Positions 2,964 through 18,690 of a stretch of 64,000 bases of DNA are shown one piece after another. Numbering within the stretch: the stretch's first letter is position 1; the number at the start of each line of letters is the position of its first letter. The position numbers and the translations under genes are program-made. The DNA is from a virus. The notes under the pieces were generated by a model. That model had not been told where the DNA came from, made no database searches, and saw only the letters and a program-made list of their open reading frames with translations. The DNA lies in IMG/VR virus record IMGVR_UViG_3300005529_000001, positions 80,882-144,881 of that record; one strand, written 5' to 3'.

Positions 2964-3251
2964 CTACCACGAACGTGGCAGTCCTTTCACTCTGGCGCGG
3001 CTGATCCTCGGGTGGTGCCAGGGCCTGTTGTGGTGGGGGACATCGTTCCGGTGCCAGAGCCCATCGGAGCCCTTGAAACAATACGTCTCCAGCAGGCCGA
3101 GGTAGCCCAGGTTGGTGCCCCAGTAGGCCCTGCACCGCATCGGCTCGCCCGGGTGGCTCATCTCCCACAGGGCACGCTGGATGTCGGTGTACCGCATCCC
3201 GCCACGGTCAGCGATCAGGTCGAGGACCCTGACGGACTTTGACTGCAGCAT
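2964..3251 (-). CDS. hypothetical protein (95 aa)
   Basis: ORF track; leaderless start behind promoter 3259..3297. Confidence 0.5.
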   Translation of the reverse strand: MLQSKSVRVLDLIADRGGMRYTDIQRALWEMSHPGEPMRCRAYWGTNLGYLGLLETYCFKGSDGLWHRNDVPHHNRPWHHPRISRARVKGLPRSW

Positions 3252-3258
3252 GGTCCCA

Positions 3259-3297
3259 ACCTACCACAAAAAGGATCGCGGGTGCACACCCGCGCCC
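3259..3297 (-). promoter_or_regulatory. sigma70-like promoter (GTGCAC-17bp-GTAGGT) for gene starting at 3251
   Basis: GCGCGGGTGTGCAC CCGCGATCCTTTTTGTG GTAGGT TGGGACC ATG on minus strand. Confidence 0.45.
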
Positions 3298-3314
3298 GCG
3301 CCCACGCAATGGCT

Positions 3315-3354
3315 CATCGATGAACCCACAGTGCAACCAAGAGTTCATCGATGG
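3315..3354. promoter_or_regulatory. perfect 11-bp inverted repeat CATCGATGAAC-N18-GTTCATCGATG in divergent intergenic region (candidate operator)
   Basis: seen directly; lies between the divergently transcribed gene 2964..3251 and the RecA-like gene; the loop contains GTGCAACC, the -35-like motif of this element. Confidence 0.4.
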
Positions 3355-3481
3355 TACACTGGACCCAATCCGCTTGAAGCTGGCCTGGAGAGCGAGCCCT
3401 GGTCCGGGAGGACGGCGGGGAGCCACGCAGCCTGCCCAACGGTTGGGCTCCCCAGAAAGCGCTGCCCGTCCACACCGTCTG

Positions 3482-3510
3482 TGCAACCCCCGGTGCTTTC
3501 CTGGTAGACT
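3482..3510 (+). promoter_or_regulatory. sigma70-like promoter (TGCAAC-17bp-TAGACT) for RecA-like gene
   Basis: TGCAAC + 17 bp ending in CTGG + TAGACT; here followed by a 37-nt leader with GGAGG RBS before ATG 3548. Confidence 0.45.
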
Positions 3511-3547
3511 GGGACCATCAACGCTCCACCACCCCGGAGGAAACACA

Positions 3548-4369
3548 ATGGCTGGCATGAACCTGAAGGTGGCCCGAGGCTTCGCCCTCGGCACCCGCCG
3601 ATCGACCATCAAGGTCCCACCCGAGCTCCGCGTCAAGCACTCGACCGGCATGGACTGGCTCGACGACGTGCTGGGCAGCGAGGGCGGTGTCACCGCCTCG
3701 TCTGTCATCATGCTGACGGGCGGTCCCGGCTGCGGCAAGAGCACCCTGATCCGGCAGCTGGCCAACTCGATGGCCCGCGACGGCTCGACGCTGCTCCCCA
3801 TCTACAACTGCGGCGAGGAGAGCCTGTTCCAGGCTGAGCTCGCCAACGAGCGGCTGCAGGTCACCAACGACTTCATGGTCGGTGAGGAGACGGAGCTGCC
3901 CAAGCTGCTGACCTTCGCCGACAACGTGAGGAAGGCCAACCCGAAGAAGGTCGTCACCATCCTGCAAGACAGCCTCCAGACCCTGAACGACATGAAGTAC
4001 AAGGACGGCGGCACCACGGGCAACACCCCGGTCCGCTGCGCCGAGGCGCTGGTCAGCTGGTCGCAGGAGAAGGTGGGCAACTTCGGCCACGTCTGGTTCG
4101 TCGGCCAGGTGACGAAGGGCGGCGAGTTCGCCGGCAAGAACGTCATCAAGCACGCGATTGACGTCCACATGCACCTGTTCTACGACGAGGACAAGAAGTC
4201 GGCGACCTACGGCATGCTGCTGGGCGAGGTCCAGAAGAACCGCTGGGGTTGCAACGGCAAGACCTACATCCTCGGCCTGACCAAGACGGGCATCGAGGAG
4301 CGCGGCTCCTTCACCAAGGGCCAGGACTTCGACGTCGACGGCAAGGAAGACGAGGGGGAGGCTGCCTGA
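3548..4369 (+). CDS. RecA/RadA-like ATPase (small Sak4/RadA-type recombinase core, Walker A GGPGCGKST)
   Basis: ATG 3548 preceded by GGAGG; motifs VIMLTGGPGCGKSTLIRQL and the RecA-fold core arrangement; ORF-track start 3239 lies in the promoter region and is rejected. Confidence 0.65.
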   Translation: MAGMNLKVARGFALGTRRSTIKVPPELRVKHSTGMDWLDDVLGSEGGVTASSVIMLTGGPGCGKSTLIRQLANSMARDGSTLLPIYNCGEESLFQAELANERLQVTNDFMVGEETELPKLLTFADNVRKANPKKVVTILQDSLQTLNDMKYKDGGTTGNTPVRCAEALVSWSQEKVGNFGHVWFVGQVTKGGEFAGKNVIKHAIDVHMHLFYDEDKKSATYGMLLGEVQKNRWGCNGKTYILGLTKTGIEERGSFTKGQDFDVDGKEDEGEAA

Positions 4370-5671: not shown

Positions 5672-5865
5672 CTGGGGATTGTAAGCTGTCTCCCGTCACT
5701 GGGTCGCGCGCACGCGTCCGCGCAAGGATCGTAGCCCTCGATCACGCACGTCCATAGCTTGGGTTCCGGAGTCAGGTAAACCAGCACCGTCTTCTTCTCA
5801 TCCTCGGCATACACCGCGATGACCAGGTCCTCGCCCACCATGTCCCCGGGTTTCACCATCGTCAT
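5668..5865 (-). CDS. small protein (65 aa) with VKPGDMV motif; paralog of remnant at 6770-6924
   Basis: ORF track; ATGA coupling with neighbour. Confidence 0.45.
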   Translation of the reverse strand: MTMVKPGDMVGEDLVIAVYAEDEKKTVLVYLTPEPKLWTCVIEGYDPCADACARPSDGRQLTIPR

Positions 5866-6131
5866 CTCAAGAGACGGCCCTCGCCCTCGTCAGCTTGTTC
5901 GACCAGGAACGGGCTGCACCAGCCCAGCTCCATCCGGTGGTTCAGCACCAAGATGCCCCGTTCCCTGCAGACAGCGATAACCAGGGCGACCTCGTCGGCG
6001 GTCAGGTCACCGCAGGCTGGGTTGTCATCGCTCTCGCCCGCACCGTGCCTGCGCCCGCGCCACAGGGTCGGCCTCCAGTACCCGGTCACCAGGTCGCCTG
6101 GGGAGATGGGTTGCGGTCTCCCGTCAGACAC
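5862..6131 (-). CDS. family A small protein (SPGDLV...VALVIAV...ELGW)
   Basis: ORF track plus family motifs shared with more than 30 neighbours. Confidence 0.6.
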   Translation of the reverse strand: MSDGRPQPISPGDLVTGYWRPTLWRGRRHGAGESDDNPACGDLTADEVALVIAVCRERGILVLNHRMELGWCSPFLVEQADEGEGRLLR

Positions 6132-6351
6132 TGTCCACGAACTCGGTGAAGGCCCAGCCCAGCTCTGATCGCGAGTTGAGCAACAACGCCACGCCGATCG
6201 CCTGTTCGTTTGGCTCTGGGGGCACGACCGCGATGACCAGCATCACCTCTCCCGGTGAGAAGCTGCCGCACTGGTTCCTGACAGCGGGCGTCCGGTACAG
6301 GTGGCGCTTCACCATCCTCGCGTTGGTGGTGACCAGGTCCCCGGGCTTCAA
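6124..6351 (-). CDS. family A small protein (MKPGDLV...VMLVIAV...ELGW)
   Basis: ORF track plus family motifs. Confidence 0.6.
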   Translation of the reverse strand: MKPGDLVTTNARMVKRHLYRTPAVRNQCGSFSPGEVMLVIAVVPPEPNEQAIGVALLLNSRSELGWAFTEFVDSV

Positions 6352-6701
6352 TAGTGACGCCTGTACCAGCCCGGCGGGGGACAGAACGGGATGAACCGGT
6401 GCAGCAACGTCGACACCGCTGCCTCGACCTCCTGGTTCTTGGCCAGCTCCCGTTTCATGTCCTGCGTCGCCCGGGTGCAGTCACAGAGCAGCTGTTCGTC
6501 GTTGAGGTCGACCCGGGTGTACTGGTGCTTGTTGTGGTCCCACGCCGAAGCTTGCGACGTCTCGACCCTCAGCAGCGCTGCCAGCTGTTCCAGCTGCTTC
6601 CTCAGCTTGGTCTTCTCCGGCGGGGGCTCGCCCGACTTCATGATGTCCTTGGCGAACGACATGCTGGTGAACGGGTCCCTGGTCGGGGTCTTGTCCTTCA
6701 T
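6348..6701 (-). CDS. hypothetical coiled-coil protein (117 aa), not a family member
   Basis: trimmed to ATG 6701 (MKDKTPTRD...), which sits 6 nt after the TATACT -10 of promoter 6708..6736. Confidence 0.5.
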   Translation of the reverse strand: MKDKTPTRDPFTSMSFAKDIMKSGEPPPEKTKLRKQLEQLAALLRVETSQASAWDHNKHQYTRVDLNDEQLLCDCTRATQDMKRELAKNQEVEAAVSTLLHRFIPFCPPPGWYRRHY

Positions 6702-6707
6702 GGCTCC

Positions 6708-6736
6708 AGTATACGGTCTCCCGCCCCGGGCTTGCA
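6708..6736 (-). promoter_or_regulatory. sigma70-like promoter (TGCAAG-17bp-TATACT), leaderless start at 6701
   Basis: GCGCGGGTGCAAG CCCGGGGCGGGAGACCG TATACT GGAGCC ATG on minus strand. Confidence 0.5.
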
Positions 6737-6769
6737 CCCGCGCGCACGCGCAGCGAGTCGCTCCGGGAT

Positions 6770-6924
6770 CTCAACGAATCGACGGATCCCTCGAGGCCGT
6801 CATCGCAGACCACGTCGTAGGTCCGCAGCCTGGGCCCAGGGGTGAGGCACGTCACCGTCGTCACTTCGCCCCTGGTCACCACGGCCACGACCAAGTCAGC
6901 GCCCATCATCTCTCCCGGTTTCAC
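6770..6924 (-). pseudogene. possible degenerate paralog of gene 5668..5865 (VKPGEMMGADLVVAVV...LTPGPRL...), GTG start overlapping upstream stop
   Basis: GTG at 6924 in a GTGA overlap; first ~45 aa align with 5668..5865, but the frame then runs unbroken through the promoter and start of gene 6348..6701 to a stop at 6481. Confidence 0.25.
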
Positions 6925-7178
6925 GTGCCCGTCTCCCTGAGGTACCAGGCATAGCTCCAGCCGAGCTCGGACCGGGGCGACAGCAACAGGGCTCTCGTGT
7001 CGTCGTTTGGGTCTGTCTCGGGCACCGTCGCGATGACCAGGGCGACCTCTCCCTCCATCAGCCTCCCGCACCTGTGGAACTGAGCAGTGTCCATCGACCG
7101 GTACAACGGGATTGTCAGGATGGGCTCGTTGTTGTGGCCCCCGTCGGGCCTGATCGTCACCAGGTCACCCGGCTTCAT
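6921..7178 (-). CDS. family A small protein (MKPGDLVTIRPDG...VALVIATV...ELGW)
   Basis: trimmed to internal ATG 7178 at the conserved MKPGDLV N-terminus. Confidence 0.6.
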   Translation of the reverse strand: MKPGDLVTIRPDGGHNNEPILTIPLYRSMDTAQFHRCGRLMEGEVALVIATVPETDPNDDTRALLLSPRSELGWSYAWYLRETGT

Positions 7179-7410
7179 CGAAGAGCCCCTCCCTCTGCCA
7201 ACCGAAGGTCGTCCCCACCAGGACCAGCAGCTGCTGCCCAAGCTCGTGGGGGATGTCCGCGGTGGCCAGCACGATCCCGAGGCTGCTGCTGTTGAGCCAT
7301 AGCACCGACCGGCCCGCGCTCGAGCCGATCCGGTTGTCCCACAGGGGTGCGGTGCCTCCGTCCACGTCGGCGCGCCACTTGGCCAGTCTGACCAGGGTCC
7401 CGGGCTTCAT
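7165..7410 (-). CDS. family A small protein (MKPGTLV...FGW)
   Basis: ORF track plus motifs. Confidence 0.55.
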   Translation of the reverse strand: MKPGTLVRLAKWRADVDGGTAPLWDNRIGSSAGRSVLWLNSSSLGIVLATADIPHELGQQLLVLVGTTFGWQREGLFDEAG

Positions 7411-7646
7411 GGGTTGCTGTCACCCGTCGAGACGGTGATCGTCTTTGTGAATGATTCGTAGATCCAGCCGAGCTCCGCCTTCGAGTTCAGGACTAACAAC
7501 ATGTTTGCTCCAACGCCGTCAACGGCAATGACAAGGGCAATGCCATCAGGTGTCAGCTCGCCGCAGTGTTGCCAGGGTGCATGGTTGGTCCTGAAGATGA
7601 GTCGCTTTTGCAGGTCGAACGTAGTGATCAGGTCTCCGGGTCTCAT
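7407..7646 (-). CDS. family A small protein (MRPGDLI...IALVIAV...ELGW)
   Basis: ORF track plus motifs; ATGA coupling. Confidence 0.6.
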   Translation of the reverse strand: MRPGDLITTFDLQKRLIFRTNHAPWQHCGELTPDGIALVIAVDGVGANMLLVLNSKAELGWIYESFTKTITVSTGDSNP

Positions 7647-7876
7647 GTGTCAAACCCGTCGATGAAGGAGATGTAGATCCATCCCAGTTGAGCCCTGTTC
7701 CCAATCACTAGAGCCTTGATCTTGTCCGATGCCACGACCAACGCAACCTCCTTGGGACCCAGCTCACCGCACCTGTTGTCACCGCCCCGGAATGCGTCGA
7801 GATCGAGTTGCTTGTACAACCCACGGGTCACGTTGAAGGAGACAGTGACCAGGTCTCCGGGCATGATCGGTCTCAC
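7643..7876 (-). CDS. family A small protein (MPGDLVTV...VALVVAS...QLGW)
   Basis: ORF track plus motifs; ATGA coupling. Confidence 0.6.
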   Translation of the reverse strand: MRPIMPGDLVTVSFNVTRGLYKQLDLDAFRGGDNRCGELGPKEVALVVASDKIKALVIGNRAQLGWIYISFIDGFDT

Positions 7877-8154
7877 TTGCGGTCTCCCGCTCGGTTCTTG
7901 AGCGTCCTGTTCAGCAGCCAGTCATCCTCGCCGACAGTGACGACGAACCCAGCATAGCACCAGCCCAGCTCACCACGTTCCGTCAGGACCAGCACTGTCA
8001 CGTTCGGCCTGAAAGACGCGATGACCATGCCCAGCTCGCCCGGTTCCAGTGACCCGCATGATGCTGAGAAGCCGGTGTCCCGGTACAGGAACCTGGGCCC
8101 TCTTGGATGGTCACTCGTCACCAGGTCGCCCGGCCGGGAGAACCTCCATTCCAC
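7873..8154 (-). CDS. family A small protein (RPGDLV...GMVIAS...ELGW), probable GTG start
   Basis: family domain within ORF 7873..8289; the N-terminal 45 aa of the track ORF are junk-like and overlap gene 8181..8477; in-frame GTG at 8154. Confidence 0.5.
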   Translation of the reverse strand: MEWRFSRPGDLVTSDHPRGPRFLYRDTGFSASCGSLEPGELGMVIASFRPNVTVLVLTERGELGWCYAGFVVTVGEDDWLLNRTLKNRAGDRK

Positions 8155-8180
8155 GCTCGTGTTGCTCGTTGCCGCCGCGG

Positions 8181-8477
8181 TCACGGTGTCCCTCGCGCGC
8201 ACGCGTGTGGCGACAGCTGTCGCACGTTCATGCAAAAAGTGATGTTGATCCAACCCAGCTCCATCCTGCCGTTTAGCAGCAACAACCACCGTGAATCACC
8301 GACCGTGGCGACGTTGTCAACGGCGTTAGCGATGGAAATGAGCAGGGCAACATCGTCTTTGTCCAAAGAACCGCAACTGCCGCTCCCGAAACTGGCATCA
8401 TTGTAGATGAGGTTGTGCGTGAACAGCCCGCTGTTGACGATGAGGTCGCCGGGCAGCATCGCGTCTTTTATCATCAC
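8181..8477 (-). CDS. family A small protein (LPGDLIV...VALLISI...ELGW)
   Basis: ORF track plus motifs; ATGA coupling. Confidence 0.6.
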   Translation of the reverse strand: MMIKDAMLPGDLIVNSGLFTHNLIYNDASFGSGSCGSLDKDDVALLISIANAVDNVATVGDSRWLLLLNGRMELGWINITFCMNVRQLSPHACARGTP

Positions 8478-8749
8478 ACATCACCCAGCAATTTGGTGAC
8501 GAACCTGGCGACGATCCATCCGAGCTGGGTCCGGTTGTTCAGCAACAGGAACCAGTTTTCTCGTCCGACTGCATCCCCGTCAGCTTGACCGAGACACTGG
8601 ACCTCGTCAGCAGCGACGAGGAGAGCTATGTCACCAACCTTCATCTCTCCACACACGTTGTTGGAGAACTGGATCGCCGTCCTGTATAGGCACCTAATAA
8701 CCAGGGTTGGGTCAAGCTCGACGAGGTCGCCTGGGACGGGACGGTTCAT
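8474..8749 (-). CDS. family A small protein (MNRPVPGDLVEL...IALLVAA...QLGW)
   Basis: trimmed to ATG 8749, which forms ATGA with the upstream stop at 8746. Confidence 0.55.
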   Translation of the reverse strand: MNRPVPGDLVELDPTLVIRCLYRTAIQFSNNVCGEMKVGDIALLVAADEVQCLGQADGDAVGRENWFLLLNNRTQLGWIVARFVTKLLGDV

Positions 8750-9036
8750 CTCTTCCCCCGTGCACGCCTCTTGAGTCGTCGGGTGAACCCAGCATAGACC
8801 CAACCCAGTTCCATCCGCGGTGTCAGCAGCAGCTGGTCCAGCCCATTGGCGGACGTAGCGATGAGCAGGCCCACCTCGTTTGGCCACAGGGTCCCACACC
8901 TGTCACCAGCATATTCTCCCCTGGGTTCTTTGAACAGCCACCTGTCGGTGGTGTCATCGACAGTCTGGATGAGCTCTCCGGGGGCGGGGAAACCGTTCAC
9001 CATGACGCGTGTCTCAGGAAGCCGCCAAAGATCCAA
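8746..9036 (-). CDS. family A small protein (PAPGELI...VGLLIAT...ELGW); alternative start ATG 9003
   Basis: ORF track plus motifs. Confidence 0.55.
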   Translation of the reverse strand: MDLWRLPETRVMVNGFPAPGELIQTVDDTTDRWLFKEPRGEYAGDRCGTLWPNEVGLLIATSANGLDQLLLTPRMELGWVYAGFTRRLKRRARGKR

Positions 9037-9263
9037 CCCAACTCCATTCGTTGGTTCAACACCAGCACGACTTTCTTTTCAAGCACCGCAATGATCATCG
9101 CTAGTTCTTCTGGTTTGAGGCTGCCACAGTACGTTATTGAGTTGGGATCACGGTGTAACATCCGAGATTGTTTGGCACGGTCGATAAAGACCATGTCGCC
9201 AGGAGCGGGTGACCATTCTTGTTTCACTGACGTCTCGTGATCAAGCCAGTTCGATCCAGTCAT
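8997..9263 (-). CDS. family A small protein (PAPGDMVFI...LAMIIAV...ELGW)
   Basis: ORF track plus motifs. Confidence 0.6.
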   Translation of the reverse strand: MTGSNWLDHETSVKQEWSPAPGDMVFIDRAKQSRMLHRDPNSITYCGSLKPEELAMIIAVLEKKVVLVLNQRMELGWIFGGFLRHASW

Positions 9264-9453
9264 CCCAACACCAGCCCAATTGCATCCGGTGGTTCAACAG
9301 CAACGACTTTCCAGAACTCATGGCCAAGACAAGCATCACGTCATCCCAGTCGCAGCCCCCTGTGACTTCACCTCCCGGGGACTCGAATGACCTAAACAGG
9401 GTCAGGTATGTCACCCCGTTGGGACAGACAAGGTCGCCAGGAACGATCATCAC
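9241..9453 (-). CDS. family A small protein (MMIVPGDLV...VMLVLAM...QLGW)
   Basis: ORF track plus motifs. Confidence 0.6.
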   Translation of the reverse strand: MMIVPGDLVCPNGVTYLTLFRSFESPGGEVTGGCDWDDVMLVLAMSSGKSLLLNHRMQLGWCWDDWIELA

Positions 9454-9689
9454 ACGCCCGACGGGGGAACTCGCCGCAACGCCTCTGCTAGCCTCGCTAC
9501 CCGAGCTATCTCGTTGACGTTGAACGTCTGCTGCACCTCCATGTTGTTCACGTAGTACGTGAACACGATCACGTCCGAGTCGATCTGGACCTTGGCGGCT
9601 GTACCCTGGGCATCTTGCGGCCGCGCTCCTGGCATGGTGAGCTGCAACGAGAAGATCGCTTCAGTGACCGTGGTTGTCTTGCGCGGCAT
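9450..9689 (-). CDS. hypothetical protein (79 aa)
   Basis: ORF track; ATGA coupling with 9241..9453. Confidence 0.45.
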   Translation of the reverse strand: MPRKTTTVTEAIFSLQLTMPGARPQDAQGTAAKVQIDSDVIVFTYYVNNMEVQQTFNVNEIARVARLAEALRRVPPSGV

Positions 9690-9960
9690 CGGTTTCCTCG
9701 TTCTCTCGTCTCAGGATGACTTCGGGCGTGATGCAGTAACCCTTCAGGACGTTGATGACCTTCTCGGCGTTGTTGTCAGCCACCATCACCAACCGCATGA
9801 CGGGCTCGCCGTTCTCGTCAGGGTGACACGGGTCCGTCCGCAAGTGACCGACCTTGCGTAGGATGTCAAGCTCGATGCGAGCGTACCTGCTCCAGCTCTC
9901 CTTCCACTTCCGGAACTGGACCTCGAGTACGTGTTCTTTCCTGACAATCGTGACTTGCAT
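9661..9960 (-). CDS. hypothetical protein (99 aa, MQVTIVRKEHVLEVQFRKWK...)
   Basis: C-terminal part of track ORF 9661..10566 from ATG 9960; the remainder of that ORF is the wrong frame of the Zn-ribbon gene. Confidence 0.45.
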   Translation of the reverse strand: MQVTIVRKEHVLEVQFRKWKESWSRYARIELDILRKVGHLRTDPCHPDENGEPVMRLVMVADNNAEKVINVLKGYCITPEVILRRENEETDAAQDNHGH

Positions 9961-9961
9961 G

Positions 9962-11143
9962 TCATTCACTCCGTTGCTCGGGTGTGGTGACCTTGGGAGG
10001 TTGTGCTCCGTGCCGGTGAACGACCCTGATGTAAGCTGTCTCTCCGCTCGTGAGCCGCACCTCAAAAGTTGTCTCAGAGTTGACGTGATTCCACCCCTTT
10101 GGGGGACGGATATCGACCTGAGCGACCAGGGCATGGCCCGTGTCCAACTGGTTCGCAAGGGCTGCCACCCAACCCCTGGCAGCGTTCTCGAGTCTCTCGT
10201 TGTAGGCTTTGGCTCTCGCAAGATTGAGCTTTGCCTCGAGCTCATGGCGCAGTTTGTCTGTCTCGTTCGCCAAGCGTTTGGTCTTCTCGAGCTCCTGCTC
10301 GAGCTGGGCAACCACATCAACGGAGGCGGCGTTCGGGGGTGGCACTGCAACGCTCTTGTCGTGATGGTACACGTTCCAGCAACCACGGTGAGCGAACCGG
10401 TGACCAGAGCCATCGCCCGCACCGACTCGTGTTCCCTGGCCCAGCGGTTCACCGCAATAGCAGCAGTGATCAGGCGAGTCAGTGTACAACCCATGCGATT
10501 TGCACCACTCGTCTCGGCAGCCCTGGTGAGCTCGGTTGGAGACGTTCGACCAGATGTAGAAGTCAACAGTGGGAATGTCCTGTGCTACGCCCAACGCGTG
10601 GCCGCAGATACCACAGTTGTTCGCGTCATGGCGACCGCTGAACGATGGCGACACAAAGCGAGTTGTCTTGTTGTCCCGGAAGCACTGCCGGTGAGCGAAG
10701 TCAGAGTTCCCAACGGGTACGTAAGCCTCCGAAGAGTCTTTCAACGGGTGCTTGCAGTAAACGCAGGGCGTATTGTCGCCCGCCAACGCTGCCGCTCCGC
10801 GATCCGCCTCAGCCGTCTTCCGTCCCGCCCGTGCTTCGAGACATGACCTGTGAATCATCCTGCCTGGGTCATCAGGGTCTTGGAGCGATATCTGCAGCTC
10901 CTTGAGGTCTTCATTGAACAGCTCGAGCCCACACCAAGTGCAGCTCTTGTCGTCAGCATCGCCAAGCATCGGGTTCCCTTTCGGTGACTCGCCACGTTCT
11001 TTGCCCGTCATCCGGGCGGGTGGGTTGTAAGCTTTGTAACAAGCGGTGTGAGCGTACCGAGTCACCGTCTCTCCCGGTTTTACCACGAGCGTTTTCGGCC
11101 CGCGACCCAGCGCTCGGTAGCAGTAAACACAACTATCGTCCAT
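9962..11143 (-). CDS. multi-zinc-ribbon protein: five tandem CxxC...HxxC (C2HC) modules followed by a C-terminal coiled coil (393 aa)
   Basis: repeats CVYC..HTAC, CTWC..HRSC, CVYCKH..HRQC, CGICGH..HQGC and CCYCGE..HRGC at ~55-aa spacing; C-terminus ELEKTKRLANETDKLRHELEAKLNLARAKAYNERLE is coiled-coil-like. Confidence 0.6.
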   Translation of the reverse strand: MDDSCVYCYRALGRGPKTLVVKPGETVTRYAHTACYKAYNPPARMTGKERGESPKGNPMLGDADDKSCTWCGLELFNEDLKELQISLQDPDDPGRMIHRSCLEARAGRKTAEADRGAAALAGDNTPCVYCKHPLKDSSEAYVPVGNSDFAHRQCFRDNKTTRFVSPSFSGRHDANNCGICGHALGVAQDIPTVDFYIWSNVSNRAHQGCRDEWCKSHGLYTDSPDHCCYCGEPLGQGTRVGAGDGSGHRFAHRGCWNVYHHDKSVAVPPPNAASVDVVAQLEQELEKTKRLANETDKLRHELEAKLNLARAKAYNERLENAARGWVAALANQLDTGHALVAQVDIRPPKGWNHVNSETTFEVRLTSGETAYIRVVHRHGAQPPKVTTPEQRSE

Positions 11144-11285
11144 GACGTCTCCTCCAGGACCAGAGCTGGCTCACCATGTCTTTGATCTCGAAAGCCGCAG
11201 CGATGATGACGAAAGCGACGCCAAAAATCATGGCGATGATCCCTATCGACGTGGCGACGACTTCGACAAAACCAAAGAAGGTCAT
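11133..11285 (-). CDS. small membrane protein (50 aa, single TM)
   Basis: ATG 11285 with AGGAG RBS; hydrophobic segment MTFFGFVEVVATSIGIIAMIFGVAFVIIAAAF; promoter-like TGAAAG...TAGTAA upstream. Confidence 0.45.
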   Translation of the reverse strand: MTFFGFVEVVATSIGIIAMIFGVAFVIIAAAFEIKDMVSQLWSWRRRHGR

Positions 11286-11356
11286 GTTTCCGCTCCTAAC
11301 CTTACTACCAACACTGTCACAGCTTTCACAAGCATGCAGCACCGATGAGGAATCGT

Positions 11357-11617
11357 TTAGAGCTCGACCAAACCCGCCGCTGAACACCATCCCAGTCGAT
11401 TGTGGACGAGAACCAGCACCTCGTCCCGGGTCGCACTCAATGATTCTTTGTCGGGGGTGGCAAGCACCAATGCCACGTCGCCCCGGGATATTCTGGTGAC
11501 CTCTGGGTTGCGGTCGTTGGCCATCCCTGGCATGCAGGTCACCGATATCGACGGGCCGGAGACGCGAGGGGCCACCGTTGCGAGCTGTCCCGGCCTAAGC
11601 CTGTCACCCTTCCCCAC
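11357..11617 (-). CDS. family A small protein (LRPGQL...VALVLAT...RLGW)
   Basis: ORF track plus motifs. Confidence 0.55.
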   Translation of the reverse strand: MGKGDRLRPGQLATVAPRVSGPSISVTCMPGMANDRNPEVTRISRGDVALVLATPDKESLSATRDEVLVLVHNRLGWCSAAGLVEL

Positions 11618-11885
11618 CTACAGACTTATCTACGGGAACCAGCGAGCTAGCAAACGCCCAACCCAACAGCTCTCCCGACAGCACCAGGACCTCGGTCATT
11701 GACCCATTACCGTGTGTCGTGATCACGAGCCCGATGCATTTCCACTGCAACTTGCCCACATTCGGGTTGACGTTGTTCATCGACCCGTACATCGCTGTGA
11801 TGCCGCTTGTTCCTCCGGGAGAGAGCGTGACCAGGTCGCCCGGTTTGAATGTCACACTTGTTCGAGCCATGACGTGCTCAACCAC
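11604..11885 (-). CDS. family A small protein (FKPGDLVTL...IGLVITT...LLGW)
   Basis: ORF track plus motifs. Confidence 0.55.
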   Translation of the reverse strand: MVEHVMARTSVTFKPGDLVTLSPGGTSGITAMYGSMNNVNPNVGKLQWKCIGLVITTHGNGSMTEVLVLSGELLGWAFASSLVPVDKSVGGEG

Positions 11886-12142
11886 CCGTACCGTGAGCGG
11901 CAGACCAACAACACGTATGCATTGCCGTCATTGTCCACGTTTGCGACGACCAGTGCGACATCATTGCAATTGATCTTCCCGGTCACCACATCAGGCTCTC
12001 TTTGTGTGTCACCAACGCTGATGAACCCAGGCCTGCGATAGAGCCCGAACGACAGGCCCAACTGCCGGTACTCAGCGCTAAGACTGGCGAGGTCACCGGG
12101 AGCCAGCATCGTCTGCGTTGACACAAGTTTCGTTTTCTTCAT
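11852..12142 (-). CDS. family A small protein (LAPGDLASL...VALVVAN...RYGW)
   Basis: ORF track plus motifs. Confidence 0.55.
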   Translation of the reverse strand: MKKTKLVSTQTMLAPGDLASLSAEYRQLGLSFGLYRRPGFISVGDTQREPDVVTGKINCNDVALVVANVDNDGNAYVLLVCRSRYGWLSTSWLEQV

Positions 12143-12420
12143 GCGTGCTCATCATCGTTCTCCTCGTCTTCTATCCAGAGCGTATTCGCAACAATCCAAC
12201 CAAGACGTTGACCAGCTAATATCAGAGCCTCTTGTCGAGCACGCTCTGGGTGTTGCATCTTAACATCGACCACTGCGATAACAAGCGCTAGTTCATGCCA
12301 CCTAAGCGAGCCGATGAACGGGTTGTTATCGCTGCAGTTGCCTGGGTTAGCGGTCATCACCCCGACAACGTCACTGTTTGCAAGAGTGATCATGTTGCCC
12401 GGTCTAACGCTCATTAACAA
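12139..12420 (-). CDS. family A small protein (VRPGNMITL...LALVIAV...RLGW)
   Basis: ORF track plus motifs; ATGA coupling. Confidence 0.55.
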   Translation of the reverse strand: MLMSVRPGNMITLANSDVVGVMTANPGNCSDNNPFIGSLRWHELALVIAVVDVKMQHPERARQEALILAGQRLGWIVANTLWIEDEENDDEHA

Positions 12421-12706
12421 TCACCGATAACTCATTAGCGATAGCCCAACCCAAATGTCGCTTCGTCAAGAGGAGCGCTTCTCGGCGCGGGTTATGTTTA
12501 GAACCAAAAACTATCTTGTCGGTGATCGCAACAACAAGCGCTACCTCATCGATCTCCAAGCGCCCGGTTTCTACGTTATCGGGTGGCTTCGGGTCTCCAG
12601 GCATTTTCGTCAACATCAACGATGGTTTATCGAGCAATCGCATCGCTGCCTCACGATCAAGACCGATGTAGCCAAGATCAATCTGAACGAGGTCGCCTGG
12701 TTGCAT
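12404..12706 (-). CDS. family A small protein (MQPGDLVQI...VALVVAI...HLGW)
   Basis: trimmed to ATG 12706, two nt after the upstream stop. Confidence 0.55.
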   Translation of the reverse strand: MQPGDLVQIDLGYIGLDREAAMRLLDKPSLMLTKMPGDPKPPDNVETGRLEIDEVALVVAITDKIVFGSKHNPRREALLLTKRHLGWAIANELSVIVNER

Positions 12707-12708
12707 GG

Positions 12709-12948
12709 TCACACCTTCACTAGGTCTTCTTGATAAGCCCAGCCCAAGCATAATCCTGACAGCAACAACACCTCGTCAGTGTAATCATACTTGTCAGATG
12801 TTAACGCAATGACGATCGCAACGTGACCAGAACGGAGCTGGCCCACAAATGGGTTATCTCTGACGTGAAACCTGCCTGGTTGTGCAGTCATCCGTCCCTG
12901 GCCACGAGTGACAAGGCTGGTTGTGACGAGGTCACCGGGAAGCATCAC
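12709..12948 (-). CDS. family A small protein (MMLPGDLVTT...VAIVIAL...CLGW)
   Basis: ORF track plus motifs. Confidence 0.6.
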   Translation of the reverse strand: MMLPGDLVTTSLVTRGQGRMTAQPGRFHVRDNPFVGQLRSGHVAIVIALTSDKYDYTDEVLLLSGLCLGWAYQEDLVKV

Positions 12949-13250
12949 TTGTCATCCTTGGTTCCCGTTGACGATTCGTACTGGCAATACTGCGTGGGCT
13001 CGCTCCCGATGCTGTGCCTAGCGTGGCGGTCTGGACGTGACACATGCAACGAACCCTCACCCACATCGGGTGCATTTTTCAATGAGTCAATGGTCGCCTG
13101 GAGCCGCGAGCACTCCCGCTTCCACCAGCACAATTCGTGACACCAGCCGTCGTCCATGATCGCCGTCTTGTTTTCGTCTGTACCGATCTCTTTGTGGCAG
13201 AACTGGCAACGAGGCCTCAGGGGTCCAACATCTCTCGTCGGCCACATCAC
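12945..13250 (-). CDS. Zn-ribbon (CQFCHK...WCHELC) plus coiled-coil protein (101 aa)
   Basis: ORF track; same CxxC..HExC plus coiled-coil architecture as 17455..17721 and the repeats of 9962..11143. Confidence 0.5.
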   Translation of the reverse strand: MMWPTRDVGPLRPRCQFCHKEIGTDENKTAIMDDGWCHELCWWKRECSRLQATIDSLKNAPDVGEGSLHVSRPDRHARHSIGSEPTQYCQYESSTGTKDDK

Positions 13251-13663
13251 ACAACCTCCAGCTCGTCATCGCCGAGCCACCCGAACTTCTCACCGACGAG
13301 GACAAACCACCACCGCTTGCTGCCCTCTTTCTTCAGGTGTGGGATGTCTTGCGGTCCGCCCAACACTAGGACCGGGCTACCTCCCTTGACCATGACGCCA
13401 TCGCCTGGTATCTTGCCATTCGAATCTTCAGGCATCGCGTCGTTCCACAGGACGGCAACTTCTTTGGTGATCCAACCTCCCGTGACTGCGTAACCCTTGA
13501 CGATGCGGACAAAATCACCTGGAAGCAGGTTTTTGGTGGGAGGCTTTGTTATCTCGGCTGCACGGGCTTCGATAGCATCAGGGCACCTGTCAGCAAGGGT
13601 GTGCCCGCACGTGACCACCATGTTGCCGTCATCGTAATACCCGGTGCACTTCACCCCGGCCAT
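13247..13663 (-). CDS. family A-related protein with N-terminal Cys-rich module (KCTGYY...VTCGH...RCPD) and C-terminal LLPGDFV...FGW
   Basis: ORF track plus motifs. Confidence 0.5.
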   Translation of the reverse strand: MAGVKCTGYYDDGNMVVTCGHTLADRCPDAIEARAAEITKPPTKNLLPGDFVRIVKGYAVTGGWITKEVAVLWNDAMPEDSNGKIPGDGVMVKGGSPVLVLGGPQDIPHLKKEGSKRWWFVLVGEKFGWLGDDELEVV

Positions 13664-13950
13664 CTTCGCGTCTCTTCTCGGTAACGGAGGATTTTGGGTC
13701 TCCGCTTGACATTGACGATGTATTCAGCCATGACATAGAACCTGCCGGGCTGCGACTCGCTCTCAGCCAACAGTTCCACAACGGCTTTCTTGTTCCCATC
13801 ACGATCATCATAATCGGAGACCAACAACTTGACGGGCCGGGGGTTATCGACAGCCTTCCAGCTTGAATCACCCAACCTACGTGATAATTTGTCGTTCCAC
13901 TCACGTCCCATGGAGCCTCCCAATGATGTGAGCTGCAGCACACGCAGCAA
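13651..13950 (-). CDS. hypothetical protein (99 aa)
   Basis: ORF track; protein-like composition. Confidence 0.4.
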   Translation of the reverse strand: MLRVLQLTSLGGSMGREWNDKLSRRLGDSSWKAVDNPRPVKLLVSDYDDRDGNKKAVVELLAESESQPGRFYVMAEYIVNVKRRPKILRYREETRRWPG

Positions 13951-14110
13951 CCAACACGGTCATGATAATGTACATGACTCGCGTCACTTTCTTGTCCATC
14001 TCAGCTTCACGTTGGCTGACCACACGTTTTTCCTCGTCGGTCAATGATGCCCACCACCGAGCTCGACGACGCCTTGCTTCTGAGTTCCGACGTGTCCAGC
14101 CAACCATCAC
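13901..14110 (-). CDS. hypothetical protein with C-terminal TM helix (69 aa)
   Basis: ORF track; hydrophobic VMYIIMTVLVAACAAAHIIG. Confidence 0.4.
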   Translation of the reverse strand: MMVGWTRRNSEARRRRARWWASLTDEEKRVVSQREAEMDKKVTRVMYIIMTVLVAACAAAHIIGRLHGT

Positions 14111-14478
14111 TTCTTCCCCTTGTTACCCGAGCCCTTTTCCCACCCGGGTTCGTTCTCGTCCCACTCAACAGTGACAGTGCCCGTGTAACGACGGCCCTTT
14201 TTCTCGAGACCAAAGTCAGCGGTGACACAATCGCTGGTGTCTGTGAAGTCATCGAGCGGTTCTGTTGATGAATCACGTCGGGTCAGCGGGTCATCTCCGT
14301 TTGATTGGTCCCACAAGGCATTCATCTGCAAGCTGTCAGCCAACGATTCCACCGCTTGTTCGAGGGTGTCACCCTGGCTGACGATGTTGAACGTGGTCGT
14401 CCCCGCGACCCACGCAATCTCGGACCAAAACGCAACGTACTCAAGCGTCTTTGATCGCATCACCCGCTTGTGCGCCAT
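14107..14478 (-). CDS. HicB-like / UPF0150-like domain protein (123 aa), no HicA partner seen
   Basis: segment YVAFWSEIAWVAGTTTFNIVSQGDTLEQAVESLADSLQ matches the HicB-family core YxVxFPD..GxxAxGDTxEEAxxxAxEAL. Confidence 0.45.
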   Translation of the reverse strand: MAHKRVMRSKTLEYVAFWSEIAWVAGTTTFNIVSQGDTLEQAVESLADSLQMNALWDQSNGDDPLTRRDSSTEPLDDFTDTSDCVTADFGLEKKGRRYTGTVTVEWDENEPGWEKGSGNKGKK

Positions 14479-14752
14479 GCGGTGATTTTACGTGGTCCCG
14501 ACCGTCTTGGATCTTTTTAAACCAATGAGCAGTGTTCCACCCAATCCTACCAGACACTAGCAACATCACGTGGTCGGTGTCAGTGCCGGGAATCCCCATC
14601 AAACTTGGGTAACGAGCTAGGACCAAGACGATGTCGTTGGTGTGAATGGCACCACGGTTTTCTGTTCCCTCTTCGGGGTCTTTCCAGAGCGTGAGCGGGA
14701 CCTTGTTTCTATTCTTATCGATGTTTATCCTGACTAGGTCTCCCGGTCTCAT
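14441..14752 (-). CDS. family A small protein (MRPGDLVRI...IVLVLAR...RIGW)
   Basis: trimmed to ATG 14752 (ATGA with upstream stop). Confidence 0.55.
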   Translation of the reverse strand: MRPGDLVRINIDKNRNKVPLTLWKDPEEGTENRGAIHTNDIVLVLARYPSLMGIPGTDTDHVMLLVSGRIGWNTAHWFKKIQDGRDHVKSPHGAQAGDAIKDA

Positions 14753-15033
14753 CACAGCACCCTGAACTGGTCGGTCTCCCGCCAACCCAACAACGTCGCT
14801 CCTTCTGGCATCGGCACCATGATCAGGCACTCTTCCCAAGCGACATCAGCTTTGGTGAGTTCCTCAACGTAGTTGATAACGGCGATGACCAAGCCAACAG
14901 ACTCGGGTGTCATCCGCACGACTTCCCTGACTTGGGTGCCGCCACCGACAGTGATGCCAACTGGACCAGGCTTCTCAAACAACGTAACAAAACCTTGCGA
15001 CTGGCGGATCTGGACAGTGTCACCGGGCTTCAT
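14752..15033 (-). CDS. family A small protein (MKPGDTVQI...VGLVIAV...LLGW)
   Basis: trimmed to ATG 15033 at the conserved MKPGD N-terminus. Confidence 0.55.
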   Translation of the reverse strand: MKPGDTVQIRQSQGFVTLFEKPGPVGITVGGGTQVREVVRMTPESVGLVIAVINYVEELTKADVAWEECLIMVPMPEGATLLGWRETDQFRVL

Positions 15034-15253
15034 TGATGACCCTAAAGAGCTCTTGTTCACGCCAACCAAAGCAGACGTTCCCGTCGTTCGTGGGCACCAT
15101 CACCATGGCTTGGTTACGGTACAATCCGATGACGATAACAGGCTGGTCCCACCGGAGGTTTATCACGGTGTTACTGTAAAACTCGTCTGGGTAATCGTTC
15201 AACTGTAGGAAGCCCCACCAGGCCTTGGTACAGACGAGGTCACCCGGTTTCAT
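15020..15253 (-). CDS. family A small protein (MKPGDLVCT...PVIVIGL...CFGW)
   Basis: trimmed to ATG 15253. Confidence 0.55.
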   Translation of the reverse strand: MKPGDLVCTKAWWGFLQLNDYPDEFYSNTVINLRWDQPVIVIGLYRNQAMVMVPTNDGNVCFGWREQELFRVINEAR

Positions 15254-15476
15254 TGTCAATGACCTTAAACTGACGTGCTGACCGCCAACCAATGCGTTGC
15301 TCACATAGAATTAGAAGTCTTATGTCATCGTCGCACCACCTAACTGCCGCAAGCACCAATGCGATGTGGGCAGGATACGCTATGTGAACGACAACATCAT
15401 CGCTCCTTGCATCATAGTCCCACTTGCGAAAGATCCGCGTGGGATACGTTACCCTTATGAGGTCGCCTGGTTTCAC
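15240..15476 (-). CDS. family A small protein (MKPGDLIRV...IALVLAA...RIGW)
   Basis: ORF track plus motifs; ATGA coupling. Confidence 0.6.
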   Translation of the reverse strand: MKPGDLIRVTYPTRIFRKWDYDARSDDVVVHIAYPAHIALVLAAVRWCDDDIRLLILCEQRIGWRSARQFKVIDNETG

Positions 15477-17453: not shown

Positions 17454-17454
17454 G

Positions 17455-17721
17455 TCAGCATTCCCAGAGGAGCCAGTGCCAGGCTCGACCGACCAAACCT
17501 CGAGGCCAGTGACGGCGCTCGTAGTGACCGTTAAGTTCGTCTTCAAGCTGCTGGACCTGGTTGCGCAGGCCCTCGATGATGTTGAGCCTGACAGAAGCCA
17601 CGTGACGAAGCTGACACACCTCGTGAGCCCAACCCTCTTTCAGGTTCCCGCCTGTCCGCACAGCGATGCTGGAGACTGTGTCGACCGGGTTACCGCAAAG
17701 GGTGCATGCTTCGTACTTCAT
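17455..17721 (-). CDS. Zn-ribbon (CTLCGN...WAHEVC) plus coiled-coil protein (88 aa)
   Basis: trimmed to ATG 17721; architecture shared with 12945..13250. Confidence 0.45.
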   Translation of the reverse strand: MKYEACTLCGNPVDTVSSIAVRTGGNLKEGWAHEVCQLRHVASVRLNIIEGLRNQVQQLEDELNGHYERRHWPRGLVGRAWHWLLWEC

Positions 17722-17728
17722 CGTTTGC

Positions 17729-18256
17729 TCACTCGTATACATCGCACAAGAAAGCAAAGAGAGATTGGGCATCTCTTGCTCTCAAGGCTGGAACCCAGAT
17801 GTAGTTGCCCTTATTCTCACCCACGTTTGGATTACGGGCTTCCTTGCCCGTTGTCCAACCCAGGAAGTAACAGGTCTGTGTTGCTTCGTCAGTGACCGTC
17901 TGGGTAGTGATGACGTTGTCTGGTGACTTCACCGAGACCTGGATACCAAGCTTGTTACAAGCATCGGCTGCGGTCCCGTACGATGGATCATTGACTTTAT
18001 CCTTGTGATCGATACACAAGAAGTCAATGGACGCAAACCGATCGCGCATGGACCACATCCGTTCGACGCAATCACGAAACGCCTGGCCCCGAGCCTTGAA
18101 AACGTTGTCGTCGATCCAACGAGCCATCGCCAGCTGCGCGCGGCCACCCGTCAACGCGTTACGCATCTCTTCGGGAGTACGTTGTCCCCTAAACGATTTT
18201 GCCCAGGCTTCGGCGTGGTGCTCATCGCTAGGGAGGTACCTGAACTGACAGACCAT
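17729..18256 (-). CDS. hypothetical protein (175 aa)
   Basis: ORF track; protein-like composition; no motif recognised. Confidence 0.45.
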   Translation of the reverse strand: MVCQFRYLPSDEHHAEAWAKSFRGQRTPEEMRNALTGGRAQLAMARWIDDNVFKARGQAFRDCVERMWSMRDRFASIDFLCIDHKDKVNDPSYGTAADACNKLGIQVSVKSPDNVITTQTVTDEATQTCYFLGWTTGKEARNPNVGENKGNYIWVPALRARDAQSLFAFLCDVYE

Positions 18257-18566: not shown

Positions 18567-18690
18567 AGCTGAATCCTTTCCTAGTACCTTCGTTGTGGCC
18601 TCGCTCGTAGCCACGAGCGTAGGCAATGAGTCCCGTCACCGCGGAACACACGAATGCCGTCAGCAACAACACGATGTACGGGTGTCCCAT
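18520..18690 (-). CDS. small membrane protein (56 aa)
   Basis: ATG 18690 forms ATGA with the SET-gene stop; TM segment IVLLLTAFVCSAVTGLIAYA. Confidence 0.35.
   Translation of the reverse strand: MGHPYIVLLLTAFVCSAVTGLIAYARGYERGHNEGTRKGFSYGFSEGRGRGHRHDA

What the first reader, a model, noticed from the sequence alone, without database searches (positions are those of the whole stretch)
9962..11143. Protein built from five tandem CxxC...HxxC zinc-ribbon modules plus a coiled coil, related to single-module proteins in the array
Five repeats of roughly 55 aa each contain Cx2C followed about 20-25 aa later by Hx2C: CVYC..HTAC, CTWC..HRSC, CVYCKH..HRQC, CGICGH..HQGC and CCYCGE..HRGC. A roughly 100-aa coiled coil follows. 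Genes 12945..13250 (CQFCHK..WCHELC plus coiled coil) and 17455..17721 (CTLCGN..WAHEVC plus coiled coil) carry one copy of the same module. These may be nucleic-acid- or protein-binding adaptors co-evolving with the small-protein array in which they are embedded.
Basis: seen in the sequence. Interest (0 to 1): 0.6.

Follow-up and report, generated by a model that had tools for sequence, protein, structure and literature searches.

The report
Phage protein with five zinc modules
A gene in what looks like a very large soil phage encodes a protein built from five copies of a small zinc-binding module (distantly like the one in ribosomal protein eL24), a long helix and a conserved tail domain; it is a real, undescribed protein family whose function is still unknown.

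Summary
The ORF at 9962..11143 (-) is a real gene of 393 aa with five CxxC...HxxC modules. The modules still align once Cys and His are masked (z = 7.5 and 4.2). A profile built only from non-window relatives finds four of the five, plus the small protein at 17455..17772. The one at 12945..13250 is marginal (E = 0.013).

An exhaustive search found five orthologs in soil metagenomes. They carry 2-4 modules and share a conserved C-terminal half. A second group of phage proteins, mostly small (62-98 aa), shares only the module-5 type.

AlphaFold (pLDDT 86.5) gives each module a knuckle, a beta-hairpin and a helix. That is treble-clef topology, not a zinc ribbon. A 63-residue helix and a three-stranded sheet follow. 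The helix has weak heptads, so a coiled coil is not shown.

The only significant link to anything known is archaeal eL24 (E = 2.9e-6). No Pfam, NCBIfam or PHROG family matches.

The proteins are neutral to acidic. I therefore favour a multivalent protein-binding scaffold over nucleic-acid binding, at low confidence. A link to the surrounding small-protein array is conserved synteny only.

Verdict: a new variant of a known kind, of moderate interest.

The parts
9962..11143 (-). Whole gene, 393 aa: five zinc modules, a long helix and a C-terminal beta domain
   Evidence: ORF. Called as a gene on both public contigs that carry it. Orthologs at E = 1e-18 to 1e-3.
11149..11155 (-). Shine-Dalgarno sequence GGAGGAG, 5 nt before the ATG at 11143. 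The start overlaps the stop of the upstream gene (11133..11390) by 11 nt.
   Evidence: Read directly from the sequence.
11039..11131 (-). Module 1 (residues 5-35): CVYC...YAHTAC. Closest to module 5, so probably a lineage-specific duplicate.
   Evidence: Non-circular HMM i-E = 1.3e-4.
10841..10942 (-). Module 2 (residues 68-101): CTWC...MIHRSC. Positional ortholog of the first module of P0003 and P0013.
   Evidence: Non-circular HMM i-E = 3.7e-7.
10682..10765 (-). Module 3 (residues 127-154): CVYC...FAHRQC. Closest to module 5.
   Evidence: Non-circular HMM i-E = 5.6e-6.
10517..10615 (-). Module 4 (residues 177-209): CGIC...RAHQGC, with a long loop. Its C-terminal flank HQGCRDEWCKSHG matches the 'HxQCxDEHDQxHGICRD' module of the orthologs.
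   Evidence: Not recognised as a whole by the non-circular HMM.
10379..10465 (-). Module 5 (residues 227-255): CCYCGEPLGQGTRVGAGDGSGHRFAHRGC. This is the canonical form. It is 36-47% identical to the modules of the other phage proteins in alignment A5, and similar to the stand-alone proteins of 62-98 aa.
   Evidence: Non-circular HMM i-E = 1.3e-14. Modelled as knuckle, hairpin and helix at pLDDT 82-91.
10142..10330 (-). Long alpha-helix (residues 272-334). A weak coiled coil or a single-helix spacer.
   Evidence: AlphaFold helix 58-120 of the 215-393 construct, pLDDT 92-98. Helix 273-336 in the single-sequence model. Heptad analysis.
10016..10132 (-). Conserved C-terminal three-stranded beta-sheet domain (residues 338-376). 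Together with the end of the helix (ENARGW..AL) it is the signature of the orthologous family.
   Evidence: Alignments A3 and A4. AlphaFold strands 124-132, 142-150 and 155-162. C-terminal HMM hits in L007, L008 and L011; those ortholog sequences were in the A4 seed, so the hits are by construction.
12945..13250 (-). Small paralog A (101 aa) with one CQFC...WCHELC module (13128..13208). It has orthologs P0002 and L008:7309-7602. In L008 the residue before His is Ser, so His rather than that Cys is the conserved position.
   Evidence: Its relation to the module family is marginal.
17455..17772 (-). Small paralog B (105 aa) with one CTLC...WAHEVC module (17614..17706) followed by a helix. Its ortholog in L007 lies directly upstream of the multi-module gene.

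Best explanation
The gene encodes a non-enzymatic, modular zinc protein of a large (probably huge) soil phage. It is expressed from a long run of same-strand small genes.

Shown or predicted:
- Each of the five N-terminal modules is a single-metal Cys2-His-Cys treble-clef finger: a CxxC knuckle, a beta-hairpin, then a helix that starts at HxxC.
- The module is distantly related to the eL24/TRASH type of zinc domain. The third ligand is His, one position after the Cys that eL24 uses.
- The array changes over evolution. Orthologs have 2-4 modules. Here modules 2 and 4 are the ancestral ones, and modules 1 and 3 look like old duplicates of the module-5 type.
- A 63-residue helix links the array to a small conserved beta-sheet domain. 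That domain is the constant part of the family.

Inferred:
- The conserved C-terminal half anchors or oligomerises the protein.
- The variable zinc modules act as several separate protein-binding surfaces. The protein would then be a scaffold or adaptor that gathers or sequesters host or phage proteins during infection.
- Zinc binding itself is inferred, not measured.
For: The gene is real.
- It has a strong Shine-Dalgarno sequence and overlaps its upstream neighbour.
- It has orthologs P0003-6 and P0013, with conserved gene order in L007, L008 and L011.

The repeats are homologous.

The module is a treble clef.
- AlphaFold with a 20-sequence alignment gives pLDDT 86.5.
- C13 and C16 sit in a knuckle, strands run 25-27 and 36-38, and the helix runs 39-50, starting at H38/C41.

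The ligand role of His is supported.
- C, C, H and C are the only invariant columns across 33 modules.
- A viral relative has Cys at the His position, RFRCEAC.
- The Cys that precedes His in paralog A is Ser in an ortholog.

The eL24 link is significant.
- The module-5-type profile hits eL24 chain 9e6q_AW at E = 2.9e-6 over the whole module.
- Cys-fixed shuffles of that eL24 sequence score 0.7 +/- 2.7 bits (maximum 16.8) against 30.9 for the real sequence.
- Weaker hits point the same way: Arc_trans_TRASH, Ribosomal_L24e, zf-FLZ and a MYM finger.

The array is plastic: module counts are and module-to-module similarities.

Protein binding is favoured over nucleic-acid binding.
- The focal zinc region has net charge -1 and pI 6.9.
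- The orthologs have pI 5.5-7.1, and most single-module relatives are neutral to acidic.

The phage setting is typical for small proteins of unknown function. A stand-alone module gene sits among small genes next to primase-helicase, ligase and DNA polymerase genes.
Against: - No binding partner, oligomeric state or metal content has been measured or predicted.
- The charge argument is indirect.
- eL24 and FCS fingers, the nearest relatives, bind RNA.
- The fold searches gave no significant match for the module or the C-terminal domain, because the long helix dominated them.
- Module 4 and small paralog A are only weakly tied to the family by sequence.
- The AlphaFold alignment is shallow, with only six sequences covering the C-terminal half.
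Confidence: 0.45

Rival explanations
1. It is a multi-finger nucleic-acid-binding protein, either a phage transcription or translation regulator or a structural DNA- or RNA-binding protein. Each module would contact a stretch of RNA or DNA, as eL24 contacts rRNA and FCS fingers contact RNA.
For: - The nearest significant relative is eL24, a ribosomal RNA-binding protein.
- Tandem zinc fingers are the classic way to read nucleic acids.
- A review of jumbo phages suggests that the ~35-copy zinc-ribbon expansion in Bacillus phage G may be transcription factors or structural DNA-binding proteins (PMC7824862).
- The window also carries an IF1/eIF-1a-like gene.
Against: - The zinc region has net charge -1. 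Orthologs have net charge -11 to 0, and most single-module relatives are neutral to acidic.
- The conserved hairpin tip is GDGDG, which is acidic.
- Linkers and module number vary freely, unlike arrays that read a fixed site.
Confidence: 0.25
2. It is a metal-handling protein. The modules would bind and release Zn or Cu reversibly, for buffering, sequestration or delivery, as proposed for TRASH and YHS domains (my knowledge of that family).
For: - There is a distant link to the TRASH/eL24 type of domain.
- The chain has five sites and is His-rich, with 18 His.
Against: - The ligand set and the predicted burial next to a hairpin and a helix are those of a structural zinc site.
- No metal transporter or metal regulator is found among the neighbours.
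- No TRASH family model reaches its threshold.
Confidence: 0.07
3. It is a virion or assembly component, for example a fibre, an inner-body protein or a scaffold. The helix would form an oligomeric stalk and the zinc modules would decorate it.
For: - The architecture is a long helix plus a small beta domain.
- There are weak, non-significant local matches to gp25/IraD-like baseplate proteins.
Against: - The gene lies among dozens of small same-strand genes with no structural hallmark gene nearby.
- The heptad pattern is poor.
- No PHROG structural family matches.
Confidence: 0.08
4. The repeat is a chance pattern of Cys and His, or the ORF is not a gene.
For: None beyond the lack of database annotation.
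Against: - Shuffle tests.
- The non-circular HMM.
- Orthologs and conserved gene order.
- A strong ribosome-binding site.
Confidence: 0.01

Closest known systems
N-terminal zinc domain of ribosomal protein eL24 (TRASH / FCS / MYM type of treble-clef finger)
   Same: - A single metal site with a CxxC knuckle followed by G.
- A Gly-rich beta-hairpin with a DG turn.
- An 'RF' just before the last ligand pair, at a helix start.
- The profile match covers the whole module: E = 2.9e-6, 30 bits, and it survives the Cys-fixed shuffle control.
   Different: - The third ligand is His, one residue after the eL24 Cys: RF-A-H-x-x-C against RF-C-S-x-x-C.
- The proteins are neutral to acidic, not basic.
- The modules come in tandem (2-5) or as mini-proteins in phage contigs, not as a ribosomal protein.
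- The Pfam models Ribosomal_L24e, Arc_trans_TRASH and zf-FLZ all stay far below threshold.
LIM-domain proteins (eukaryotic protein-binding scaffolds)
   Same: - The first LIM finger has the same ligand pattern and spacing, C-x2-C-x16-23-H-x2-C (my knowledge of the family).
- There are borderline profile hits to LIM domains: 1wig at 0.006, CRP2 at 0.012 and MLP at 0.019.
- The concept is the same: several fingers in a row used as docking sites.
   Different: - There is no second finger two residues after HxxC. The next CxxC is 22-32 residues away.
- Each unit has one metal, not two.
- No LIM model appears among the Pfam hits.
Zinc-ribbon expansion in Bacillus phage G (about 35 copies)
   Same: A very large phage has amplified a small zinc-binding unit of unknown role (PMC7824862).
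   Different: - There the units are separate genes and zinc ribbons.
- Here the amplification is mainly within one polypeptide, the fold is a treble clef, and the family has its own conserved C-terminal domain.
Tandem MYM-type / FCS fingers of animal ZMYM proteins (from my own knowledge)
   Same: Repeated single-metal fingers of the TRASH type in one chain, thought to mediate protein interactions. There is a weak hit to ZMYM5 (2das, E = 0.54).
   Different: Those have four Cys ligands and sit in eukaryotic nuclear proteins. No significant similarity was found here.

Membership tests
Treble-clef zinc fingers (fold group) | The first two ligands come from a CxxC zinc knuckle | tested here: met
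   CxxC is invariant in all 33 aligned modules. It is modelled as a knuckle at residues 13-16 of the construct.
Treble-clef zinc fingers (fold group) | A beta-hairpin follows the knuckle, and the last two ligands lie at the N-terminus of a helix | tested here: met
   In the AlphaFold model the strands run 25-27 and 36-38 and the helix runs 39-50, with H38 and C41 at its start. pLDDT is 82-91. This is a prediction, not a solved structure.
Treble-clef zinc fingers (fold group) | One zinc ion bound by the four ligands | not testable with these tools
   Needs metal analysis. The model coordinates could not be inspected.
TRASH / eL24 / FCS superfamily | Ligand pattern C-x2-C-x19-22-C-x3-C (from my knowledge of the family) | tested here: not met
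   The pattern here is C-x2-C-x20-26-H-x2-C. His aligns one residue after the eL24 Cys. One viral relative has C-x2-C at that place.
TRASH / eL24 / FCS superfamily | Significant sequence similarity to an established member | tested here: met
   Profile A10 against eL24 chain 9e6q_AW gives E = 2.9e-6, with a shuffle control. Other eL24 chains reach only E = 0.15-0.48. The profile of all modules (A9) gives 1.3e-3.
TRASH / eL24 / FCS superfamily | Reaches the curated threshold of a Pfam family of that kind | tested here: not met
   Best E-values are Arc_trans_TRASH 0.003, Ribosomal_L24e 0.055 and zf-FLZ 0.047, each in 1-2 of 33 modules and all below the cut-off.
LIM domain | Two contiguous fingers (C2HC, two residues, then C2C plus C/H/D) binding two zinc ions | tested here: not met
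   There are only four ligands per unit, and the gap to the next CxxC is 22-32 residues.
Zinc ribbon | Both ligand pairs come from knuckles on beta-hairpins, with no helix supplying ligands | tested here: not met
   The second pair, HxxC, starts a helix in the model. Hits to zinc-ribbon families are isolated and cover the knuckle only.
PHD / RING (two-metal cross-brace fingers) | Eight ligands binding two zinc ions in a cross-brace | tested here: not met
   There are four invariant ligands per module. The Pygopus PHD match (E = 0.03) covers only the first site.
Coiled coil | Heptad repeat with hydrophobic a and d positions over the helix | tested here: inconclusive
   Strong hydrophobic residues fill 5-7 of 19 a/d positions. 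Orthologs P0005 and P0006 have runs of 21-22 residues without one and 11-12 i/i+4 salt pairs, which resembles an ER/K single helix. The oligomeric state was not tested.

The most novel reading that the evidence does not exclude
Huge soil phages may have taken an eL24/TRASH-type zinc module, swapped its third ligand to His and amplified it in tandem. The result would be a prokaryotic-virus counterpart of eukaryotic LIM or MYM scaffolds. Each module would dock a different member of the 34-copy family A array, or a different host protein. The protein would then assemble a combinatorial complex on a conserved helix-plus-sheet anchor. A second, less likely version is that the modules occupy the bacterial ribosome in the manner of eL24.
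Probability: 0.1. Interest if true: 0.65.

Novelty: new variant of a known kind. Interest (0 to 1): 0.4.

Why it matters
- It defines a protein family that is not in Pfam, PHROGs, NCBIfam, PDB sequences or the GenBank phage collection searched. The family has a clear signature, CxxC-x2-P-x3-G-x3-GxGDGxGxRFAHxxC, and a conserved C-terminal domain.
- It gives an annotation handle for a set of 'hypothetical' small proteins in phage contigs.
- It shows that a zinc module of the eL24/TRASH type, mostly known from archaea and eukaryotes, has been reused and tandemly amplified in phages.
- If the scaffold idea holds, it would be an entry point into the biology of the large paralog arrays that fill this genome.
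- It does not by itself open a long-standing question.

Tried and rejected
Searches that found nothing significant:
- Pfam, PHROGs and NCBIfam scans of the whole protein, of single modules and of relatives. The DUF2685 hits cover the knuckle only.
- The word-index homolog search with the whole protein found only itself. With the seven window modules it found one homolog of paralog A.
- Megablast and tblastn against 50,697 GenBank phage records.
- IMG/VR scans with the whole protein and with the C-terminal profile.
- A PDB profile search with the C-terminal half and with family A.
- Literature searches for the sample accessions and for treble-clef or TRASH domains in phages.

Structure work that did not help:
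- Single-sequence AlphaFold of the full protein was poor, pLDDT 40.6.
- The afdb50 library was not available.

Other checks:
- There are no DNA-level repeats between modules, so recent duplication is rejected.
- Promoter- and terminator-like sites are not above chance around the gene.
- An exact back-translated pattern found nothing in 185,579 genomes. A looser one found a single contig binned with a Planctomycetia MAG, which is not enough to name a host.
- P0011 (1571 aa) from the exhaustive search is judged a spurious hit.

Readings rejected: zinc ribbon, LIM, PHD/RING and B-box-like. See the membership tests.

Full report
**Observation.**
- The ORF at 9962..11143 on the minus strand encodes 393 aa.
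- It holds exactly five CxxC and five HxxC motifs, which pair up in order: C5/C8-H32/C35, C68/C71-H98/C101, C127/C130-H151/C154, C177/C180-H206/C209 and C227/C230-H252/C255.
- Fifteen of the 17 cysteines belong to these motifs, and none lies after residue 255.
- I anchored the five units on their ligands, masked the four ligand columns and scored the rest. The block around CxxC scores z = 7.5 above residue shuffles (0 of 20,000 reach it). The block around HxxC scores z = 4.2 (p = 2e-4).
- The shared residues are an acidic or polar residue three to four positions before the first Cys, an aromatic between the two Cys, L/I/V four residues after the knuckle, and [FYW]-A-H-R before the last Cys.
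- There is no repeat at the DNA level, so the duplications are old.

**Specificity.**
Module 2 (MIHRSC) fails that stricter pattern.
- To avoid circularity I built an HMM from 23 modules taken only from non-window proteins and searched all 967 window ORFs.
- The focal ORF scores E = 4.6e-31. Modules 1, 2, 3 and 5 are individually significant. Module 4, which has a long loop, is not.
- The ORF at 17458-17781 scores 1.1e-5 and the one at 12948-13265 scores 0.013. The next best ORF is at 0.2.
- Profile-profile comparison agrees: E = 2.6e-4 for the 17455 protein and 0.028 for the 12945 protein.
- So one small protein clearly carries the module. The other does so only on pattern, context and a marginal score.

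**It is a real gene in a phage-like genome.**
- A GGAGGAG Shine-Dalgarno sequence lies 5 nt before the ATG. The start overlaps the stop of the upstream gene by 11 nt. The next gene starts 2 nt after the stop.
- The window is part of a 369,506-bp metagenome contig.
- The gene lies in a run of same-strand small genes covering roughly 4.6-19 kb of the window.
- The window carries phage-type markers: the T4_Y16D family, a T4 gp23-like stretch, and phrog_7371 at 2e-56.
- It also carries accessory genes that are unusual for a phage.
- I read it as a huge phage. That is an inference.

**Relatives.**
- The word-index search found only the protein itself.
- The exhaustive phmmer search of 1.84 billion representatives found 12 relatives.
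- Five share the whole architecture: P0003, P0004, P0005, P0006 and P0013, at 27-32% identity over the full-length alignment.
- Their conserved part is the C-terminal half: a long helix, a motif E-E-N-A-R-G-W-x-x-A-L, and a beta region G-W-N-H...S-E-Y-E-F-x-L-F-S-G-E-T-V-x-x-K-V-K-H.
- Their N-terminal halves carry 2-4 CxxC...HxxC modules, against five here.
- Pairwise module scores show that focal module 2 corresponds to the first module of the orthologs, and module 4 to their 'HxQCxDEHDQxHGICRD' module.
- Modules 1 and 3 are closest to module 5. The extra modules therefore look like old duplicates of the module-5 type.
- A second group shares only the module-5 type, with the signature CxxC-x2-P-x3-G-x3-GxGDGxGxRFAHxxC. 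It comprises six proteins of 89-344 aa and eight stand-alone proteins of 65-79 aa.
- Further members are two IMG/VR contigs and one contig binned with a Planctomycetia MAG.
- One stand-alone gene sits among small genes next to primase-helicase, ligase and DNA polymerase genes on a 49-kb contig that looks like a phage.
- In one viral relative the His is replaced by Cys (RFRCEAC). In an ortholog of paralog A the Cys just before His is Ser. Both observations fit His being the metal ligand.

**Gene order.**
- In soil contig L007 the ortholog of the 17455 protein lies directly upstream of the multi-module gene. A RecA/KaiC-like ATPase converges from downstream.
- In L008 the order is a family A gene, the ortholog of the 12945 protein, one more gene, the multi-module gene, and then the converging ATPase. 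L011 is similar.
- In the window the same genes are present, but they are spread apart by many family A genes. The ATPase is at 3239..4369.
- The zinc-module genes are thus a conserved set in this lineage, and family A has expanded around them.
- This is synteny. It does not show that the two families interact. The stand-alone module occurs on a phage-like contig (L010) with no family A hit.

**Structure.**
- Single-sequence AlphaFold failed, at pLDDT 40.6.
- With a 20-row alignment of residues 215-393 plus relatives, the model reached pLDDT 86.5.
- Module 5 forms a knuckle at C13/C16 (construct numbering), a hairpin (strands 25-27 and 36-38) and a helix (39-50) that begins at H38 and C41.
- That is the treble-clef arrangement. 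It is not a zinc ribbon, in which both ligand pairs sit on hairpins.
- A helix follows at 58-120 (residues 272-334 of the protein), then a three-stranded sheet at 124-162 (residues 338-376).
- The helix is 63 residues long, not about 100.
- Its heptad pattern is weak. In P0005 and P0006 it has runs of 21-22 residues with no strong hydrophobic residue and 11-12 i/i+4 salt pairs. That looks more like a single stable helix than a coiled coil. I leave this open.

**Comparison with known families.**
- No Pfam, PHROG or NCBIfam model reaches threshold for the protein, for any module or for any relative.
- A profile of 17 module-5-type sequences matches an archaeal eL24 chain (9e6q_AW) over the whole module at E = 2.9e-6 and 30 bits.
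- When the non-Cys residues of that eL24 segment are shuffled with Cys held fixed, scores fall to 0.7 +/- 2.7 bits (maximum 16.8 in 2,000 shuffles) against 30.9 for the real sequence. The match therefore does not rest on cysteines alone.
- The alignment pairs RF-A-H-x-x-C with RF-C-S-x-x-C, so the third ligand has moved by one residue.
- Other eL24 chains score only 0.15-0.48.
- The profile of all 33 modules gives eL24 at 1.3e-3 and LIM domains at 0.006-0.02.
- Scattered sub-threshold hits to Arc_trans_TRASH, Ribosomal_L24e, zf-FLZ and a MYM finger point the same way.
- I therefore place the module as a distant C2HC variant of the eL24/TRASH kind of treble-clef finger. It is not a member of any curated family.
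- It resembles the first finger of a LIM domain in pattern, but it lacks the second finger.

**Mechanism.**
- Nothing here measures function.
- The protein has no enzyme-like region.
- Its constant part is the helix plus sheet, and its variable part is the module array.
- The family is neutral to acidic. The focal zinc region has net charge -1. Orthologs have pI 5.5-7.1. The conserved hairpin tip is GDGDG.
- On this basis I favour a multivalent protein-binding scaffold that is anchored or oligomerised through the C-terminal half (confidence 0.45 for the whole statement).
- Nucleic-acid binding comes second (0.25).
- Metal handling (0.07) and a virion role (0.08) are less likely.

**Verdict.**
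- It is wrong on the fold label and overstated on the coiled coil.
- It is untested on co-evolution with the array.
- The family is undescribed, but it belongs to a well-known class of small zinc domains. I call it a new variant of a known kind, of moderate interest.

Noticed in passing
window 5862-17223 (mostly minus strand), plus 19382-19654, 24112-24387, 28837-29073 and 35926-36129: There is a very large paralog family of ~80-aa proteins with the pattern PGDLV ... LVIA ... LLL ... LGW. An HMM finds 34 ORFs in the window, 8 in related contig L005 and 4 in L008. A profile search of PDB sequences gives no match. The fold and function are unknown.
   Followed up: partly
window 29403-32555 (+) and 32638-34554 (+): A 1050-aa homolog of the eukaryotic major vault protein (MVP shoulder domain E = 6.8e-29, plus vault repeats) is followed directly by a 638-aa SPFH/Band 7 protein. 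None of the top-listed papers in a literature search pairing 'major vault protein' with huge/jumbo phage terms mentioned the protein.
   Followed up: partly
window 53018-54667 (-), 46514-46816 (-), 18690-19052 (-), 58546-59499 (-), 57215-57988 (-), 47364-48542 (+), 63047-63859 (-): The window carries an unusual set of accessory genes for a phage-like contig. In the order of the coordinates given they are: a Cpn60/TCP-1 chaperonin, an IF1/eIF-1a-like protein, a SET-domain protein, an ADP-ribosylglycohydrolase, a TANGO2-family protein, a UDP-galactopyranose mutase and an Fpg/Nei DNA glycosylase.
   Followed up: no
window 39828-40436 (+): A 202-aa protein matches only a short N-terminal stretch of the T4 gp23 major head protein (phrog_138, E = 2.6e-7, residues 75-118). 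This is far too short to be a capsid protein itself.
   Followed up: no
window 17226-17546 (-): A 106-aa protein has a hydrophobic segment and a four-Cys zinc ribbon (CPCC...CNNC; Zn_ribbon_PaaD, E = 0.002). It lies immediately after small paralog B, and a zinc-ribbon gene sits in a similar place in L007.
   Followed up: no
window 13247-13663 (-): A 138-aa protein joins a Cys-rich N-terminal stretch (CTGYYDDGNMVVTCGHTLADRC) to a family A-like C-terminal part. It lies directly upstream of small paralog A.
   Followed up: no
window 14107-14478 (-) and L008 6096-6470: A 123-aa protein starting MAHKRVMRS... is well conserved between the window and soil contig L008, inside the small-gene array. It has no Pfam match.
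   Followed up: no
window 3239-4369 (+); L007 2561-3463 (-); L008 9650-10453 (-): A RecA/KaiC-like P-loop ATPase (phrog_26214, E = 1.7e-16) converges on the end of the zinc-module gene run in all three genomes. In the window, eleven family A genes are inserted between them.
   Followed up: partly
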